Part shown: positions 25,879 to 33,689 of the stretch, one piece after another
Position numbering within the stretch: the first letter of the stretch is position 1
How the letters are laid out: every line of letters begins with the position of its first letter
DNA from: the human T2T-CHM13v2.0 reference genome, Homo sapiens
DNA: 64,000 nucleotides
Assembly (NCBI RefSeq): GCF_009914755.1
Contig: NC_060940.1
Reading direction: 5' to 3' (one strand)
The notes under the pieces: generated by a model
What the model saw: only the letters and a program-made list of their open reading frames with translations
Told to the model about the DNA's origin: nothing
Databases searched by the model: none
Program-made: the position numbers and the translations under genes

Positions 25879-28147
25879 GCAAGATGGTATAAGGATTAAA
25901 TGGAAAAATGTACAATAAAAATTATTATAGTTCCTGGAACATAGGCCTGCAATTGGTGGTCATTGACATGGTGGCAGTGACAGTGGTGAAAGTGACGGTG
26001 ATGATATTATTCCACTTGATACAATATATTTTGTACAGTAGGAATTTTCTTGAAATACCAAATTAATAATCTTTTTGTGCATGACTTGTTTTCTTATTCT
26101 CTCTTATGTTTTGTACCTTTGCCCTATGTACTCTTCTTCTGATTGAAATGTTGTTTATCTTTCCCTCTCAACCTACACTCATTCCTAACTCCTATCTCCT
26201 TGTTAATTCTTACCCCCATAACAGAAATTAGCAAAAATATTACATACTCAAAAAGACCTGTCTGGAGATCTCTGCCTAGGTCACATCCACATAAATATTC
26301 TTCCAATGTGCCACTCCGAGCACATTATCTGAGTTATGATTTGTATCTGTGTGATTTGTGTATAGGTGTGAGTCATCTTGCATACTAGCTATATGTTCCA
26401 CAGGTGTAGGGTGTATATTTTTGCTCAACATGGTATCCCAACACATAGCTCAGATTCTGGCCCAGGGTTGCTATGTAACACACATTTAGTGCATAAATTT
26501 GTGATTAAAGATACAGGAAAAAAAGGGGTTATAGCAAATGAAGATTGTGGGGGACTAATAGCAAGGAGCATTATTCTAAGCAGTGAAAACCTCTCCAGTC
26601 TGTTTCCAATAGAGTTTCTTTATTGTTCCTTTTTCAACCCCTTTTTAAATCCTTATAATGGCTATTCAGGTCTCCGCACGTGTTTATTTCTTTGTTCTTC
26701 ATGCAATTTCTTCCTTCCAAAGAGTCCATTTGGTAGCTCTGATAAGTCAAGAGAAGATATGCATCCTCTCGGCTTTCAGAGCTCTGCAGTGTAGACTTGG
26801 CTAAAGTCCTGAAGCCCCCCAAAATATAAAGAGCCAGCTGAACATGCGGCATGAATTTACCTTTCTCCTCGTGTTTACTGTCTCTGCATTTCTGGTTCAA
26901 CTTCAGTTGCCTGAGTTAATATTCATCCTCAAAAACTTGAAAGAGCCTAATTTTTGCATTTTTGGAAGATATCCTAGAAGAGGTGTATTTCTCCTTTTAT
27001 AAAAGGAATCTTTTACAATATGAGTGAAGCCTTCTTTAATAATACAAATTATGAATGCAAATTTGCATGACCAAAATCTTTTATTTAAAATGAATGAAGA
27101 AATCATAGCAGATTACAAACTGAAAAGATTACAAATATCACACAGTCCAAAAGAATAGCATATTTTTAATTAATTAACTTATTGAAACACTTCCATAATA
27201 CTTTTTGTTTTCTAAAGTATTTGGCTGTGTAGTCTCATGACAGTTTTGGATTATCCTGTTTTATAGAGTGAATAGAAAGTTATTTTCAGTCTTTTATCTA
27301 GCAAGTTTGATTGTTTTTTGCTTATTTTTCTTGAATTATCAACGATATCCTTGAAGGAATAAAAATGGTGATTTGACTAGGTTTCAGTGAGAACAAAATT
27401 CTTTCTTTACAAAGTTACATGTGTATGGGTTAGAAGATTATTCCACACACAAGTTTTAAATTTTACATCTTTTTTCTCCTCCATCGCTTAGTTCTGATGT
27501 TGGGGGCCATAGGACATTTTTGCATAATGATACCAACTATTTATGTTTTGCTATGAGAGACAGAATCATAGCTTGGGAAGTCATTCTCACTTTGAGACAG
27601 CCAGCAGTAGCAACCATACACACAGCAAACGAACTATATAAAAATATTCTGTGAAATCCATGTATTCCTGGCACGATTTTCCTTTAGCCAGATCCCAAAA
27701 ATGTCCATGGAGCACCTCAACTCCAACTAACCCAAGCAAAGAGTAAGACATAGAAGGATTTGGGAAGGAAAGACACAATGACCAATCAAGATTAAAATGT
27801 TTTACTTTGCAAATTGTATAAAAGCCTGACAATCTGGCTACGGTGGTGGACCCTCTGAAATAATGGGCCCCTGTGTTGAGCTGCTTTTTTGTTTTGGTAA
27901 ATATATCTTTTCTTCCTAAACAAACTCCTCTTGGCAAACATCATTCAGTAACACGAGCCTTCTCTCTGTCAGGAAAATAATATATTATCAGGAACATCAT
28001 AAGGATACAATGCTGATGGCATGTTTCTTTTCAGAGGAGGGATATTGAATCAAAGTGCTGGCCTAGATCCTACCTACTACTAGATTCCAGATTACACTGA
28101 AGAGGACGTAGTAAGAATAATTGTTACCATAGCTCTCATAGCAAGCT

Positions 28148-28459
<312 letters not shown>

Positions 28460-28968
28460 AGCAAGCTTTTTTTAAACTACATACTGTATAACATACACTG
28501 TGTCAAGAGTTACATGATGTATTTCATTGTTTTTTATGATGTCTCTGTGAGAATGTCTGTGTAATAGTTTCACAGTACAGGCAAAAATGCTGAAACATAG
28601 ACAAATTAAGTAAACTATCCCAATGATAAGCTGGTAGAATTGGCATTTTCAGTACGGAAATCTGATTCCAGTGCTCTTAGCCACTATATTTCAGTGCTTC
28701 TTGGTTTCTTATACATATCTTTTCTCAAAAATGTAAAGAATCTAAGTTTTGGAATGCAAACAAGTTAAATTTAAATCTCCCTTGGAATATCACTAGTTAA
28801 ATGAATCAGTTTCTTTTTACTGTTATCAATTAAATTTTGCTTCTTATCTGTAGGATAATAATTTTCAAGTACATACTTCATAACACTTTTTGAAAAATAA
28901 GTGAGATAATGTGCAAGACAACCTTTAGCCCATTGGACAAGGCATGTCTCTGAGCTGTAGTTTCTTCA

Positions 28969-29368
28969 TGTCAGGCCTCTGAGCCTAAGCCAAGCCATCG
29001 CATCTTCTGTGACTTGCACGTATGCATCCAGATGGCCTGAAGGAACTGAAGATCTACAAAAGAAGTAAAAATAGCCTTAACTGATGACATTCCACCATAG
29101 TGATTTGTTCCTGCACTACCTTAACTGATCAATGTACTTTGTAATTCTCCGCACCCTTGAGAATGTACTTTGTGAGATCCACCCCTGCCTGCAAAACATT
29201 GCTCTTAACTTCACCGCCTATCTTAAAACTTGTAAGAACTAATGATAATCCACCACATTTTGCTGACTCTCTTTTCGGACTCAGCCTACCTGCACCCAGG
29301 TGAAATAAACAGCTTTATTGCTCACACAAAGCCTGTTTGGTGGTCTCTTCACACAGACGCACATGAAA
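28969..29368 (+). promoter_or_regulatory. 5' LTR, LTR7 family (LTR7B-like)
   Basis: tgtcaggcctctgagcc..gaaataaacagc..acatgaaa; AATAAA present; aligns without gaps to the 3' LTR. Confidence 0.93.
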
Positions 29369-29370
29369 TT

Positions 29371-29388
29371 TGGTGCCGTGACTCGGAT
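29371..29388 (+). other. tRNA-His primer-binding site
   Basis: tggtgccgtgactcggat, 2 nt after the LTR; complement of the 3' 18 nt of tRNA-His(GUG). Confidence 0.95.
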
Positions 29389-29510
29389 TTGAAATTGGTG
29401 AGATGTTTCTTGGGCTGGTCGGTCTGAGGACCTGAGGTCGTAGGTGGATCTTTTTCATGGAGCAAAGAGCAGGAGGACAGGGGATTGATCTCCCAAGGGA
29501 GGTCCCCCCG
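29384..29510 (-). other. Inverted HERV-H leader segment (post-PBS up to the major splice donor)
   Basis: Reverse complement reads cggggggacctcccttgggagatcaatcccctgtcc...catctcaccaatttcaaatccg, the sequence that normally follows the HERV-H PBS on the plus strand. Confidence 0.9.
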
Positions 29511-30133
29511 TTCCCCTCATGACACCGACACAACAAAAAAGAGTTATTCCACTAATTCCCTTGATGGTCAGTTTAGGACTTTCTGCCTCCACTATTGCTC
29601 TCAGTACTGGAATAGCAGGCATTTCAACCTCTGTCACGACCTTCCGTAGCCTGTCTAATGACTTCTCTGCTAGCTTCACAGACATATCACAAACTTTATC
29701 AGTCCTCCAGGCCCAAGTTGACTCTTTAGCTGCAGTTGTCCTCCAAAACCGCTGAGGCCTTGACTTACTCACTGCTGAAAAAGGAGGACTCTGTATATTC
29801 TTAAATGAAGAGAGTTGTTTTTACCTAAATCAATCTGGCCAGGTGTATGACAACAAAAAAACTCAAGGATAGAGCCCAAAAACTTGCCAACCAAGCAAGT
29901 AATTACGCTGAATCCCTTGGGCACTCTCTAATTGGATGTCCTGGGTCCTCCCAATTTTTAGTCCTTTAATACCCATTTTTCTCCTTCTTTTATTCGGACC
30001 TTGTATCTTCCATTTAGTTTCTCAATTCATCCAAAACCGTATCCAGGCCATGACCAATCATTCTATACGACAAATGTTTCTTCTAACATCCCCACAATAT
30101 CACCCCTTACCACAAGACCTCCCTTCAGCTTAA
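29511..30133 (+). pseudogene. env: HERV-H env TM remnant (cleavage site, fusion peptide, immunosuppressive domain, membrane anchor, tail), disrupted
   Basis: TQQKR|VIPLIPLMVSLGLS...[26 protein letters not shown]...MSWVLPIFSPLIPIFLLLLFGPCIF...LPSA*. TGA at 29753-29755 and frameshifting between ~29850 and ~29920. Confidence 0.93.
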
Positions 30134-30295
30134 TCTCTCCCACTCTAGGTTCCCACGCTGCCCCTAATCCCGCTTGAAGCAGCCCTGAGAAACATCACCC
30201 ATTCTCTCTCCATACCACCGCCCAAAAATTTTCGCCGCCCCAACACTTCAACACTATTTTGTGTTATTTTTCTTATTAATATAAGAAGGCAGGAA

Positions 30296-30695
30296 TATCA
30301 GGCCTCTGAACCCAAGCCAAGCCATCGCATCCCCTGTGACTTGCAGGTATACATCCAGATGGCCTGAAGTAACTGAAGATCCACAAAAGAAGTAAAAATA
30401 GCCTTAACTGATGACATTCCAACATTGTGATTTGTTCCTGCCCCACCCTAACTGATCAATGTACTTTGTAATTCTCCCCACCCTTGAGAATGTACTTTGT
30501 GAGATCCACCCCTACCCGCAAAACATTGCTCTTAACTTCACCACCTATCCCAAAACCTGTAAGAACTAATGATAATACACCACCCTTTGCTGACTCTCTT
30601 TTCGGACTCAGCCCACCTGCACCCAGGTGAAATAAACAGCTTTATTGCTCACACAAACCCTGTTTGGTGGTCTCTTCACAGGGACGCACATGAAA
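30296..30695 (+). promoter_or_regulatory. 3' LTR, LTR7 family (LTR7B-like), preceded by the polypurine tract
   Basis: aagaaggcaggaa then tatcaggcctctgaaccc..catgaaa. Confidence 0.93.
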
Positions 30696-30740
30696 CTTCA
30701 CACAGCAGCTATTTGCCCTTAGGCACCTCCATTTCCTTTA

Positions 30741-31113
<373 letters not shown>

Positions 31114-33689
31114 AAGATAAAATGGAAAACAAAGGTGAAAGGGGTATATCAATTGTAAAGTATAATGCAAAATATACGTAGCTAATATTTTCTACTATCT
31201 TTTTTAGCAACCATTACTAGTGTCATATTTTGAATTCATAGAACATTATGGCTACTAAGTATATGAACATCAGGTGTTTGAAAAGTCAGATAAAACTTGG
31301 GCCTGTGTCCATCTTTGAGGAAAGGGAGGAGACAGGAAAATGAGTTTTAAGTTCGTCCAATCAATTAAAACTAAATTCCTGGTGGCGTAAGTTGTTTCTG
31401 GTTTTGACATTTTTGTCCCCATAGGTGGTGAGCACAGAGCCTAGGTGGACTACTAGGTCACTTTTACTTTAATTTCTCTTTGCCACAAAAACAGACTCTG
31501 CCTGGAGTTCAACAATAAAACATTTTAAAGTAGGCAATAAAAAAAAATCACAGTTTTTTATCCATTAATGTAGCTGTATTTTAGACACAGTCTCCAGATT
31601 ATTCCTTTTTTTATAATGAGGATGACATTTTCTTTGGTGTTGCTTTAAAAATGTAGACTGTAAATGCTGAGAAAGAGGCAATTCTTACACAGTGCATTAA
31701 GTGCATTATATTAATTAATTTACATGTCTTTACTGTGCCTCATTCATCCAATTCACACATCTTCCCTAGACCTCAATTTACTATGAAAGCAGTGTCTCTC
31801 CTTACACTTTAATTTGGACCAAGACCAAGTGAAACCAAGATGGAAGGGAGATATAAAAAAAGGTGGACATGGTTTATTATAGGGAGAGAGGAAGCAAAAT
31901 GGCCTCTTAGATATTTCCAACAGAGGACATGACATTTTCAGAAGAGTCAAAAAAAATTTGTAAAGTCACCTTTTCCATTTCGTCACCCATTTACTGTTGG
32001 TATATTCATGGCTAGTTACAAGAAAAGGCAGGGTAAAGTCACACTAGGGAACAGTAATTCACTTAGGTAATCATCAGAAAGGAGTAATGGGGAAGTTTCT
32101 AAAATGCCAGTGTACACAAGATATTGTTGTGGTACGATTAATGAGCCAAAGGGAGAAATGCCCTTCAAGTAGGCTGACAGTTGCCAAGTCCTCTGACATT
32201 TTACCATGTGGCCACAGCCTCTTAAATTCCTTCTGATGCTGAACTCCACTGTAAGATCAGAAAGGTAAATGAGAACAAGAGCAGAAGTTCATTCTTCTGA
32301 GGAATTCATGATTTCCTAGTGTAGCTTGTGAATCTCTAATTGCTGCTGCCAATCATGTTTGGCCTTCTTACCTGATCTTTAGTCTGTCAAGCTCATCAAT
32401 AAAGATTTTCAGCTCAGTAAAAGCAGAAGATTCCAAAACTACAATGGTTCTCTATGACTAAACACATTACTCAATTCTAATATGGCTTTTGGTTTTCTCG
32501 CTATTGCCTTAAGTCTTAACTTTTCCCTAATGTCATTCACTCTTATGTCATCTTTCTCTGCCTTCTATACCTGGCATCAAAGCAGAATACCCAACTCTTT
32601 CTTCCTGCAGTCATCTAGACAGACAAGCACAAGTACGTTTATCTTTTTAAGGATTACACCCTGATTAATAAGGGAAAGGTAGAATGATACTGACAAAATA
32701 ACAATGAAAGAATAAACTAATATTTCAGACTTATATACAGTTATCACAGTTCATGGCTCTAGACTGTAGTTTCTACCATCCTTTTAATATTATAAATGGA
32801 CATAACATTTGGCTGACATTCTTAAATATTTTTCCTATGCTTTTAACTCACTGACTATTTCTCAGTCTTACAGTCTAAACACTATGATGATATGTGTTTT
32901 GATAATTCTTAAAGTGAACACGTCTCAATCAACTATACTGCACAGCACAGAACACAGCACTTCCTTGTTCAAATTGTTAATGTGTGTAACTAAGCACTGC
33001 AGCTTGGGTTAGGTTTCTTTTGCCACTCCTGCTTTCCAAGAGTGACTCTCACCTTCTTCTCCTTACACATCTTTTTTTCTCAGATCTTAGATCCAATTCG
33101 GGAAAACTCATAGGATCCCCAAGCAGGTTACTTCATAGGTTAGCAACAGGATCATCCCCATGGTGTCCATGTCTCCTTCTACCCCAGTTCCTGTAACCAG
33201 GTCCCTGCCTCTTCTCTGCTTTGCTCTTCCTAATATCACCCTGTTATTGGGGTCATCCCTTACCCTATGCGGCTTATTACACTCCCCAAGAATTTCATTC
33301 AGAGCATAGGAAGTCCCCTGTATCCTTGGAGCCATATGCTCTTGTGAAACCTGGTTAGATGATTTGGTATCTGTCCTGGCCACTTCCTATGTTTCATTCT
33401 ACTGCTTGTACAGAAAGTAGACTTGCCTATAACCATGGCTCCATTCAAAATGCAGACATTTTTATCATTAAGGAAAGATCAATTTTGATGCATACAAAAA
33501 TCTCTGGAATGGGAGTGTAGATGCCTCTAAGGAACTACTTTCAGGATCTTTAGTCGGTCCCCTCTATCCCAGCCCCTCATGAATTAACTGTAAGTGTGTC
33601 TGTGCCCACAGGTTCAGTTTCACCCTGTGGCTTAGTGAACGACACAATTGGGGCAAGAAAAATACCAATTGACGTTTATTACTCATGGT

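What the first reader, a model, noticed from the sequence alone, without database searches (positions are those of the whole stretch)
28969..29368. APOBEC3G-like CC-context hypermutation confined to the plus strand of the HERV-H 5' LTR
Seen: aligning the two 400-bp LTRs by hand gives about 28 differences and no gaps. Twelve are T in the 5' LTR versus C in the 3' LTR (28986, 29005, 29006, 29055, 29117, 29121, 29190, 29223, 29224, 29230, 29258, 29287), with no reciprocal cases. Three more are C>A (29115, 29257) or C>G (29151). All 15 affect a C preceded by C, mostly in CCC/CCCC runs, and at most two (29190, 29287) could be CpG decay. Established: APOBEC3G deaminates the 3' C of CC/CCC in single-stranded DNA; in retroviruses this normally appears as plus-strand GG>AG, and uracil excision with bypass can give C>G or C>A. 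Inference: the plus strand of the future 5' LTR (plus-strand strong-stop DNA) was single-stranded and edited, so this is a fossil of editing on the non-canonical strand that G>A-only screens would miss. It also roughly doubles the LTR-pair divergence (about 7% versus about 3% without these sites), which would inflate an age estimate.
Basis: partly seen in the sequence, partly recalled or inferred. Interest (0 to 1): 0.85.

Follow-up and report, generated by a model that had tools for sequence, protein, structure and literature searches.

The report
One-strand APOBEC3G-like editing of a 5' LTR
One of the two end-repeats of a badly truncated HERV-H provirus carries a dense, one-strand burst of cytosine changes with the sequence taste of the antiviral enzyme APOBEC3G, next to a scar of faulty reverse transcription, which is a rare fossil of editing on the strand that is normally spared.

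Summary
The two 400-bp LTRs (28969-29368, 30296-30695) differ at 28 sites with no gaps. Twelve are T in the 5' LTR against C in the 3' LTR, with no reciprocal case.

Thirty-five paralogous LTRs from the same genome polarise 14 of the 15 C changes as derived in the 5' LTR. Site 29190 is ambiguous. No paralogue carries the T haplotype.

All 15 changes hit a C preceded by C: 15 of 45 such sites against 0 of 74 other C's (p=8e-8). The 3' LTR has 0 of 45 and the env remnant 3 of about 82. Twelve other HERV-H LTR pairs show 0-2 per LTR.

So a single APOBEC3G-type deamination burst on the plus strand of the 5' LTR is well supported. When it happened is not settled.

- **For reverse transcription:** I found that the leader after the PBS is inverted. 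The junction lies exactly at the 3' end of the PBS, which is the 3' end of plus-strand strong-stop DNA.
- **Against:** there is no canonical GG>AG editing anywhere, 0 of 21 GG sites in env.

A post-integration genomic cluster remains a serious rival. Ape and monkey orthologues and a genome-wide LTR-pair screen would decide.

The parts
28964..28968 (.). Upstream copy of the 5-bp target-site duplication CTTCA
   Evidence: Identical pentamer directly before the 5' LTR and directly after the 3' LTR
28969..29368 (+).
   Evidence: Ungapped 93% match to 30296-30695. There are 82-95% matches to many LTRs of the same genome
28986..29287 (+). Edited tract: 12 C>T, 2 C>A and 1 C>G, all at a C preceded by C (LTR positions 18-319)
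   Evidence: It covers 15 of the 40 CC-context C's lying in LTR positions 1-319. None of the 5 such sites in 29288-29368 is changed
29244..29258 (+). TATA-like GATAAT followed by a CCACCACCC-type box. The 5' LTR reads CCACCACAT because of edits 29257 and 29258, and the 3' LTR reads ACACCACCC
   Evidence: Sequence. The reading as a TATA box plus Sp1 GC/GT box rests only on the title of Sjottem et al. 1996, seen in a reference list, and was not tested
29304..29309 (+). AATAAA polyadenylation signal of the LTR, 17 nt downstream of the last edited site
   Evidence: Sequence; its function is inferred
29371..29388 (+). Primer-binding site TGGTGCCGTGACTCGGAT, intact. Its last base is the 3' end of plus-strand strong-stop DNA
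   Evidence: Identical to the PBS after two paralogous 5' LTRs (L005, L039) and one base different from L003. Its complementarity to tRNA-His is recalled
29384..29388 (.). Junction 1: the 5-nt microhomology CGGAT, shared by the PBS end and the reverse complement of the leader end ATCCG just before the splice-donor-like GTAAG
   Evidence: comparison with L003, L005 and L039
29389..29510 (-). Leader (PBS end to splice-donor-like site) in inverted orientation. It has one private change (29454, C>T on the window + strand, TC context) and a C run one base longer than in paralogues
   Evidence: BLAST gives 97-98% identity to the leader downstream of the paralogous 5' LTRs L003, L005 and L039, but in the opposite orientation relative to the LTR. 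Sequences are compared and the position is
29504..29510 (.). Junction 2: the PBS-proximal end of the inverted leader joined to env, inside a C run plus G. The exact base is ambiguous. gag, pol and most of env are missing
29511..30282 (+). Remnant of the env transmembrane subunit and the 3' untranslated part, broken by a stop at 29753-29755 and by frame changes
   Evidence: Pfam TLV_coat profile positions 387-560 of 560, with E=1e-12, 9e-11 and 4e-4 for three pieces (the third piece scores 19.5 bits, under the curated cut-off of 22.5). It is 92-96% identical to the full-length (query 138-927) env-end matches among the 39 other matches
30283..30295 (+). Polypurine tract AAGAAGGCAGGAA directly before the 3' LTR
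   Evidence: Sequence; its role is inferred
30296..30695 (+). 3' LTR, 400 bp, unedited at all 45 CC-context C's. It has 9 derived changes of its own
30696..30700 (.). Downstream copy of the target-site duplication CTTCA

Best explanation
A single burst of APOBEC3G-type cytosine deamination hit the plus strand of what became the 5' LTR while that strand was single-stranded. It converted about one third of its CC-context cytosines. Most became T, and a few became A or G, presumably through uracil excision and bypass. Most likely this happened during the reverse transcription that made this provirus, on plus-strand strong-stop DNA (U3-R-U5-PBS). That DNA becomes the plus strand of the 5' LTR and is the template for its minus strand, so edits on it are fixed in the 5' LTR only.

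The same reverse transcription went wrong at the plus-strand transfer. The 3' end of the strong-stop DNA (...CGGAT) did not pair with a full minus-strand PBS. Instead it primed on the 5-nt match ATCCG at the end of the leader of a plus-sense template and copied the leader backwards to the PBS boundary. It then switched into env. This left LTR-PBS-inverted leader-env tail-LTR.

A delayed or failed transfer would give the strong-stop DNA time to be displaced and exposed.

**Shown:** polarity, context, and strand and LTR confinement of the changes; the inverted leader and its junction at the PBS end.

**Inferred:** the enzyme, that it was a single event, its timing, and the link between the editing and the aberrant transfer.
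For: 1. The changes are derived in the 5' LTR. At 14 of the 15 sites, 27-35 of 35 paralogues carry the 3' LTR state.
2. The context is right. It is 15/45 CC-context C's against 0/74 other C's (p=8e-8), in the order CCC 9/17, TCC 3/8, ACC 2/13, GCC 1/7, with CCCA 4/6. CC and CCC are the A3G motifs used in PMC4864454 (section read) and PMC7354603 (passages).
3. The changes are confined. There are 0/45 in the 3' LTR, 3 of about 82 in env, and 0 of the 9 CC sites counted in U5+PBS (5) and the inverted leader (4, C run at 29504-29509 not fully counted). In the 5' LTR, C>T is 12 against G>A 1.
4. The event is rare. Twelve other HERV-H LTR pairs have 0-2 polarised CC>CT per LTR. Among 53 LTRs this one has 12 and the next highest has 4.
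5. The edited region is the only plus-strand segment that the retroviral replication scheme fixes in the 5' LTR alone (established scheme, as outlined in PMC4488724, passages).
6. The leader is inverted relative to every paralogue that matched it: all 9 other distinct loci match in the opposite orientation, and three were read base by base. Junction 1 lies at the last 5 nt of the PBS, and the inverted piece ends at the PBS boundary. No other match shares the arrangement: all 39 others start at query position 131 or later.
7. A3G is reported to impair tRNA removal and plus-strand transfer (PMC5165236 passage citing Mbisa 2007; PMC7760323 passage). Fossils of faulty strong-stop or tRNA handling exist in MuERV-L (PMC5930517 passage) and in HIV reservoirs (PMC12657518 passages).
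8. In a 123-genome ERV screen, C>T clusters were about 10-fold rarer than G>A but far above all other mismatch types (12,857 against 137,954 sites). DNA transposons had far fewer clusters (PMC4866542 passages). This fits some real plus-strand editing of retroelements.
Against: 1. There is no canonical minus-strand editing. In the 790-bp env remnant the 4 private G>A are all at CpG and 0 of 21 GG sites changed. P would be about 2e-4 if the rate matched the 1/3 seen on the plus strand. The 3 changes shared by both LTRs are T>C, A>G and a CpG G>A. In particles carrying A3G the minus strand is the main target, and a review states that only the minus strand is expected to be single-stranded (PMC4488724).
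2. In the standard scheme strong-stop DNA is base-paired throughout, so an extra step is needed to expose it. I infer displacement by re-priming at the polypurine tract, which is recalled and not shown.
3. Editing stops at LTR position 319. None of the 5 CC sites in 29288-29368 is changed, and the PBS is identical to that of two paralogues. A 3' dead zone and 3'-to-5' bias of A3G could explain this, but that is recalled.
4. Three of the 15 changes are transversions. These are unusual in retroviral hypermutants and more like host processing of uracil (my knowledge). However, the 3' LTR also has 4 C transversions outside CC context.
5. The upstream flank 28485-28968 is unique DNA and cannot be polarised here. 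It is therefore unknown whether editing respects the LTR boundary.
6. Edited and unedited CC sites do not differ in predicted single-strand structure.
Confidence: 0.5

Rival explanations
1. The cluster arose on the chromosome after integration, or during repair at integration. A stretch of the plus strand in the integrated 5' LTR became single-stranded in a germline cell and was deaminated by A3G. The exposure could have come from resection at a break, a stalled fork, a repair flap or promoter melting. This would resemble the A3G-like clusters described in hominid genomes and break-associated kataegis. The inverted leader and deletion could be the product of the same break repaired by microhomology-mediated template switching, or an unrelated earlier scar.
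For: - Thousands of strand-coordinated CC/CCC clusters are reported on the human lineage, irrespective of retroelements (PMC4864454, abstract and one Results section).
- This reading needs no explanation for the missing minus-strand GG>AG editing.
- A break to the right of the LTR would leave exactly the plus strand as the 3' overhang (inference). The cluster ends about 100 bp from a rearrangement junction that has microhomology.
- Three of 15 changes are transversions, as in host processing of uracil (my knowledge).
Against: - The junction falls exactly at the 3' end of the PBS, and the inverted piece ends exactly at the PBS boundary. These are landmarks of reverse transcription and would be a coincidence for a chromosomal break. 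I estimate that as about 1 in 100 to 1 in 1000, which is a guess and not computed.
- Making an inverted copy of the leader from a resected end needs a plus-sense template such as a sister chromatid.
- The density is much higher than the minimal published cluster definition of at least 2 mutations within 50 bp: 15 changes in 302 bp, one third of the target sites.
- Nothing is edited in the 0 of 9 counted CC sites nearest the junction.
- The strand and LTR hit are the one of four combinations that the strong-stop model predicts.
Confidence: 0.3
2. A single-strand-specific process other than an APOBEC3G-type deaminase produced the pattern. Candidates are reverse-transcriptase dislocation errors in C runs, or chemical damage to exposed cytosines.
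For: Three of the 12 C>T sites (29121, 29230, 29258) change C to the next base T, as template dislocation would (contexts). Nine of the 15 sites lie in CCC.
Against: Most sites do not copy the neighbouring base. For example, CCCA becomes CCTA at 28986, 29117, 29224 and 29287. Spontaneous deamination of single-stranded DNA has no known CC preference (my knowledge). Such errors should also occur in the 3' LTR and env, which were made by the same enzyme, yet those show 0/45 and 3 of about 82. The CCC>TCC>ACC/GCC order matches A3G.
Confidence: 0.06
3. No special event occurred. The differences are ordinary stepwise substitutions, a pre-existing LTR7 subfamily haplotype, a heterozygous-virion or recombinant LTR, or gene conversion of one LTR.
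For: CC-context C>T is the commonest non-CpG class in these C-rich LTRs generally, at 0-4 per LTR. Site 29190 is a CpG and 29287 is recurrently T in 7 of 35 paralogues.
Against: None of 37 paralogues carries the haplotype. Among the 35 aligned, the maximum is 5 of 15 states, in the most divergent copy, and 26 carry 0 or 1; two further LTRs carry one each. A genome search with the 5' LTR finds nothing closer than its own 3' LTR. Both LTRs share the derived states 29110, 29232 and 29361, which interleave with the edited sites. The 9 changes in the 3' LTR are its own, so it was not overwritten by a paralogue. The target-site duplication is intact. The context test gives p=8e-8. Among 53 LTRs this one has 12 against at most 4.
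Confidence: 0.04

Closest known systems
Canonical APOBEC3G hypermutation of retroviruses and ERV fossils (GG>AG on the plus strand; for example HIV-1 lacking Vif, and edited ERVs in PMC4866542)
   Same: It shares dense, strand-coordinated cytosine deamination with the CC/CCC target preference, about one third of target sites hit, and a retroviral element as the target.
   Different: The edited strand is the plus strand. The edits are limited to about 300 nt of the 5' LTR. The expected GG>AG changes are absent from the rest of the provirus. Three of the 15 changes are transversions.
Low-level plus-strand C>T editing in the 5' U3/PBS region of HIV-1 made in the presence of APOBEC3G (Yu et al. 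2004, Nat Struct Mol Biol). This is recalled; the paper is not held
   Same: It involves the same strand and the same part of the genome, with the same proposed substrate (a transiently single-stranded plus strand around the second strand transfer).
   Different: As I recall it, that editing was a minor accompaniment of heavy minus-strand editing in cell culture. Here it is the only editing, it is dense, and it is fixed in a germline provirus. I could not check the paper.
APOBEC3G-like germline mutation clusters in hominid genomes (Pinto et al. 2016, PMC4864454) and break-associated kataegis
   Same: It shares same-strand C clusters enriched in CC/CCC, a single-generation origin, and proximity to a rearrangement junction.
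   Different: The published clusters are defined from 2 mutations within 50 bp and are not tied to retroviral landmarks. This one has 15 changes and sits in the one strand and LTR combination predicted by strong-stop DNA, beside a junction at the PBS end.
Aberrant plus-strand (second) strand transfer products (HIV reservoir proviruses in PMC12657518; MuERV-L insertions with extra PBS sequence in PMC5930517)
   Same: It is a defective provirus with both LTRs intact and a large internal deletion that starts at the PBS or strong-stop end.
   Different: Those papers describe tRNA read-through or premature transfer. Neither 'inversion' nor 'microhomology' occurs in the text of PMC12657518. Here the strong-stop end is followed by an inverted copy of the leader joined through a 5-nt microhomology.

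Membership tests
APOBEC3G-type editing footprint (mechanistic class) | Mutated cytosines lie 3' of a C (CC, best CCC), not in TC or WRC context | tested here: met
   15/45 CC-context against 0/74 other C's, comprising TC 0/23, AC 0/35 and GC 0/16. CCC is 9/17
APOBEC3G-type editing footprint (mechanistic class) | Strand-coordinated and clustered: one strand only, many sites in a short tract | tested here: met
   12 C>T against 1 G>A (a CpG) derived in the 5' LTR. The 15 changes lie within 302 bp
APOBEC3G-type editing footprint (mechanistic class) | Direction is C to T (derived), not T to C | tested here: met
   14 of 15 sites are polarised by 27-35 of 35 paralogues. Site 29190 is ambiguous
APOBEC3G-type editing footprint (mechanistic class) | The enzyme is APOBEC3G itself | not testable with these tools
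   Only the sequence context is available. The ancestral catarrhine enzyme repertoire was not examined
Canonical retroviral A3G hypermutation | Plus-strand GG>AG across the provirus, strongest upstream of the polypurine tract | tested here: not met
   0 of 21 GG sites changed in the 790 bp upstream of the polypurine tract, and the 4 private G>A are all at CpG. There is no GG>AG among the changes shared by both LTRs
Editing of plus-strand strong-stop DNA | Changes only in the 5' LTR, on the plus strand | tested here: met
   5' LTR 15/45, 3' LTR 0/45, env 3 of about 82
Editing of plus-strand strong-stop DNA | Editing stops at the 5' edge of the LTR and does not enter host flank | not testable with these tools
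   The flank 28485-28968 has no paralogue in the genome, and no primate orthologues were available
Editing of plus-strand strong-stop DNA | All changes present from the moment of integration (shared by all species carrying the insertion) | not testable with these tools
   No other primate genome is held
Germline A3G-like genomic cluster / kataegis | At least 2 same-strand C mutations within 50 bp, with CC/CCC enrichment | tested here: met
   the definition is from PMC4864454
Germline A3G-like genomic cluster / kataegis | Arose in chromosomal DNA, independent of retroviral replication landmarks | tested here: inconclusive
   The cluster lies wholly inside the LTR and beside a junction at the PBS end, but the flank could not be polarised
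HERV-H provirus | Two LTRs with a target-site duplication, a PBS after the 5' LTR, a polypurine tract before the 3' LTR, and gammaretrovirus-type env | tested here: met
   (TLV_coat). There are thousands of first-look candidate matches in the genome, of which 40 were scored per search. The name HERV-H/LTR7 and the tRNA-His assignment of the PBS are recalled, because no repeat library was available

The most novel reading that the evidence does not exclude
This locus is a fossil of one derailed reverse transcription. Plus-strand transfer failed and the strong-stop DNA was displaced. Its U3 was deaminated by A3G while the minus strand stayed covered. The strong-stop 3' end then rescued synthesis by priming on a 5-nt microhomology, which inverted the leader. 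If so, plus-strand, 5'-LTR-specific CC>CT editing is a real though rare outcome of APOBEC3G restriction. It is hidden in the C>T clusters that ERV editing screens use as a negative control. It should be enriched in 5' LTRs and in proviruses with PBS-junction scars, and it biases LTR-divergence dating.
Probability: 0.4. Interest if true: 0.75.

Novelty: new variant of a known kind. Interest (0 to 1): 0.6.

Why it matters
- Reviews state that only the minus strand of retroviral DNA is exposed to APOBEC3 (PMC4488724, passage). The largest ERV editing screen treated C>T clusters as noise (PMC4866542, passages). A clean case of dense plus-strand editing limited to the 5' LTR shows that this control class can contain real editing. 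It also gives a simple, testable prediction: a 5' versus 3' LTR asymmetry across all two-LTR proviruses.
- The case joins two reported A3G activities in one fossil, namely deamination and disturbance of plus-strand transfer.
- In practice it doubles the LTR-pair divergence here (7.0% against 3.25%). LTR-based ages should therefore be checked for one-sided, context-specific clusters.
- The edits also fall in a TATA-proximal CCACCACCC box of the 5' LTR (29257, 29258). This may have disabled the promoter, though that is inferred and not tested.

Tried and rejected
- **Subfamily haplotype or recombinant LTR:** rejected.
- **Gene conversion of the 3' LTR:** rejected because shared derived states interleave with the edited sites.
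- **CpG decay:** rejected, since only 29190 is a CpG.
- **Canonical minus-strand editing hidden in shared LTR changes or in env:** looked for and not found.
- **Secondary structure of the single strand:** predicted unpaired probability does not separate edited from unedited CC sites (mean 0.65 against 0.72, Mann-Whitney p=0.73; MFE 11/15 against 22/30 unpaired).
- **Polarising the upstream flank with paralogues:** impossible. Only the first roughly 110 nt of the query (28369 to about 28480, part of an Alu) is repeated, and 28485-28968 is unique.
- **The downstream flank:** unique up to an Alu at about 30800, and not informative for the 5' LTR.
- **A second instance:** I looked among 12 other LTR pairs and 52 other LTRs and found none. 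L029 carries 5 of the 15 states but has only 4 CC>CT in all, within the range of the others.
- **Literature that could not be read:** Yu et al. 2004, Mbisa et al. 2007 and Sjottem et al. 1996 are not held. The supplements of PMC4866542 could not be searched in any useful way, so whether that screen lists this locus or analysed the context of its C>T clusters is unknown to me.
Full report
**What is there**

The window holds a 1.73-kb, heavily deleted HERV-H-type provirus.
- Two 400-bp LTRs lie at 28969-29368 and 30296-30695. They are flanked by an identical 5-bp target-site duplication, CTTCA.
- After the 5' LTR come TT and an 18-nt primer-binding site at 29371-29388.
- Before the 3' LTR lies a polypurine tract at 30283-30295.
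- The 927-bp interior holds no gag or pol.
- From about 29511 it is the end of a gammaretrovirus-type env transmembrane subunit. It matches Pfam TLV_coat, profile positions 387-560 of 560, in three pieces separated by a stop and frame changes.
- The family name HERV-H/LTR7 and the tRNA-His assignment of the PBS are recalled. No repeat library was available.
- Genome searches with the LTRs and the interior each gave 2,377-2,882 first-look candidates in the same genome, of which 40 were scored.

**Check of the observation**

The ungapped LTR comparison gives 28 differences.
None goes the other way.
- 29115 and 29257 are A against C, and 29151 is G against C.
- All 15 sites have C as 5' neighbour.

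One exception: 29287 is not a CpG in either LTR.

**Polarity**

I took 35 distinct paralogous LTRs from the same genome (82-95% identical to the 3' LTR). I tabulated only their states at the 28 differing columns.
- At 14 of the 15 C sites, 27 to 35 of the 35 paralogues have the C of the 3' LTR.
- 29190, a CpG, is ambiguous (20 T, 15 C).
- Overall, 19 differences are derived in the 5' LTR:
  - 12 C>T, including 29190;
  - 2 C>A and 1 C>G;
  - A>G at 29024, a change to G at 29043, T>A at 29099, and a CpG G>A at 29355.
- Nine are derived in the 3' LTR: 4 G>A, 2 C>G, 2 C>A and 1 G>C.
- No paralogue carries the T haplotype. The maximum is 5 of 15 states, in the most divergent copy, and 26 of 35 carry 0 or 1.
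- Two further LTRs that scored well against the 5' LTR carry one T each.
- A genome search with the 5' LTR finds nothing closer than its own 3' LTR.
- Both LTRs share three derived states (29110, 29232, 29361) that interleave with the edited sites, and the nine changes in the 3' LTR are private. Gene conversion of either LTR is therefore excluded.

**Context and confinement**

I used the 3' LTR as the unedited reference.

| Compartment or context | Sites changed |
|---|---|
| 5' LTR, C preceded by C | 15 of 45 |
| 5' LTR, all other C (TC 0/23, AC 0/35, GC 0/16) | 0 of 74 |
| 5' LTR, CCC | 9 of 17 |
| 5' LTR, TCC | 3 of 8 |
| 5' LTR, ACC | 2 of 13 |
| 5' LTR, GCC | 1 of 7 |
| 5' LTR, CCCA | 4 of 6 |
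| 3' LTR, C preceded by C | 0 of 45 |
| env remnant, C preceded by C | 3 of about 82 |

- The CC against non-CC contrast gives Fisher p=8.3e-8. Without 29190 it is p=2.8e-7.
- The 5' LTR against the 3' LTR gives p=1.5e-5. Against the env remnant it gives p=1e-5.
- The 790-bp env remnant was compared with 12 paralogues. It has 14 private substitutions and one 2-bp deletion. Its three CC-context changes include one CpG.
- Within the LTR, the edits run from position 18 to 319. None of the 5 CC sites in 29288-29368 is changed, and the PBS is intact.

**Baseline**

- In 12 other two-LTR HERV-H proviruses of this genome, each LTR has 0-2 polarised CC>CT. The sum is 10 in 5' LTRs and 6 in 3' LTRs.
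- Among 53 LTRs scored singly against the column majority, this 5' LTR has 12 and the next highest has 4.

The event is real and rare. I found no second case in this small sample.

**A new observation that bears on mechanism**

The 122 nt after the PBS (29389-29510) are the HERV-H leader in inverted orientation. The canonical leader runs from the PBS end to a splice-donor-like CCG|GTAAG.
- BLAST shows 97-98% identity to the leader downstream of the paralogous 5' LTRs L003, L005 and L039, always in the opposite orientation relative to the LTR. I read the sequences side by side.
- Junction 1 is a 5-nt microhomology. The last five bases of the PBS, CGGAT (29384-29388), equal the reverse complement of the leader's last bases, ATCCG.
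- The last base of the PBS is the 3' end of plus-strand strong-stop DNA.
- The inverted piece ends at the base that adjoins the PBS in a normal provirus. There it is joined to env inside a C run plus G (29504-29510).
- The piece has a single private change (29454, TC context).
- None of the other 39 matches to the interior shares this arrangement. All start at query position 131 or later.

**How it most likely works**

Plus-strand strong-stop DNA (U3-R-U5-PBS) becomes the plus strand of the 5' LTR and is copied to make its minus strand. The plus strand of the 3' LTR is copied afresh from the original minus strand. This is the established scheme, outlined in PMC4488724.

Deamination of strong-stop DNA is therefore the one route that fixes plus-strand C>T in the 5' LTR alone.

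The junction suggests that the normal 18-nt PBS pairing did not happen. I infer the following sequence:
1. The strong-stop 3' end primed on ATCCG of a plus-sense leader, for example the co-packaged RNA.
2. It copied that leader back to the PBS boundary.
3. It then switched into env, where minus-strand synthesis may have ended early.

Supporting literature, seen as passages only:
- A3G is reported to disturb tRNA removal and plus-strand transfer (PMC5165236, citing Mbisa 2007; PMC7760323).
- Fossils or reservoir proviruses with faulty second transfer are described in PMC5930517 and PMC12657518.

A stalled transfer would give time for the strong-stop DNA to be displaced and exposed. I infer this could happen by re-priming at the polypurine tract, which is recalled and not shown.

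**What speaks against this timing**

- The minus strand, the usual A3G target, is clean.
  - None of 21 GG sites changed in env. This is the region that in HIV stays single-stranded longest.
  - All four private G>A there are at CpG.
  - The three changes shared by both LTRs are not GG>AG.
- In the textbook scheme strong-stop DNA is never free.
- Editing stops about 100 nt short of its 3' end.
- Three of the 15 changes are transversions.
- The upstream flank is unique DNA, and no primate orthologue is available. I cannot say whether editing stops at the LTR edge.
- Predicted single-strand structure does not explain which CC sites were hit.

**Rival explanations**

The main rival is a chromosomal A3G-type cluster like those reported for the hominid lineage (PMC4864454). 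It could be break-associated. A break to the right of the LTR would leave the plus strand as the resected 3' tail, and microhomology-mediated template switching could invert the leader.
- This explains the clean minus strand.
- It makes the coincidence of the junction with the PBS 3' end accidental.
- It needs a plus-sense DNA template for the inversion.

I put reverse-transcription-stage editing at about 0.5 and the chromosomal cluster at about 0.3. A non-APOBEC single-strand process gets about 0.06, and ordinary mutation or haplotype effects about 0.04. The remainder is left open.

**Comparison with what is known**

- The footprint works like A3G hypermutation in context, density and strand coordination. 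It fails the defining feature of the canonical form, which is plus-strand GG>AG across the provirus.
- It resembles the minor plus-strand C>T editing in the 5' U3/PBS region reported for HIV-1 by Yu et al. 2004. That is recalled; the paper is not held.
- The large ERV screen by Knisbacher and Levanon used C>T clusters as a negative control. It found them about 10-fold rarer than G>A but far more frequent than any other mismatch type. Its supplements could not be searched.
- My searches for strong-stop DNA together with deamination and APOBEC3, and for plus-strand C-to-T with APOBEC3G, found no paper describing 5'-LTR-specific plus-strand editing in an endogenous retrovirus. This is a limited, open-access-only search.

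**Verdict**

- The timing is plausible, and the newly found PBS-end scar strengthens it, but it is not proven.
- This is a new variant of a known kind of event, and of moderate to high interest as a single locus. It would gain interest if a genome-wide screen shows the predicted 5' LTR asymmetry.

Noticed in passing
window 29753-29755: The env remnant's reading frame is closed by a TGA. It was created by a private C>T at 29753 at a CpG, where 11 of 12 paralogues have C.
   Followed up: partly
window 28147-28460 and about 30800-31137: Alu elements flank the provirus. The upstream one is in minus orientation and is bracketed by a repeat of agcaagcttttt. The downstream one is in plus orientation. 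The upstream Alu keeps its CC and CCC runs apart from CpG decay, by eye.
   Followed up: partly
L005/L086 (G000:C2:45039684-45045377), L021/L071 (C7:144460536-144465912), L073/L072 (C10:32162712-32167847): Three other HERV-H proviruses have 5' and 3' LTRs of unequal length: 396 against 430, 389 against 421, and 431 against 421 bases, with 22-38 gap columns. These could be recombinant proviruses, or an LTR deletion after integration. Note that L071-L073 were fetched with about 20-25 extra bases of flank on each side, so part of the length differences and gap columns for the C7 and C10 pairs comes from flank.
   Followed up: no
L045 (G000:C4:11351138-11351599) and L087 (G000:C18:32145273-32145725): Two LTR copies match the query twice with an overlap of about 40 bases (query 1-205 and 163-400). 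This indicates an internal tandem duplication within the LTR.
   Followed up: no
window 30296-30695: Four of the 9 private changes in the 3' LTR are G>A, none in GG context (GT, GC, GC and one CpG). There are also 4 C transversions outside CC context. The numbers are within the range of other LTRs, so no special process is claimed.
   Followed up: partly
window 29384-29388 and paralogue leaders in L003, L005, L039: The leader copy that was inverted ends exactly at the splice-donor-like CCG|GTAAG of canonical copies. This may simply be where the nearest ATCCG match to the PBS end lies, or it may hint that the template ended at the donor site.
   Followed up: no
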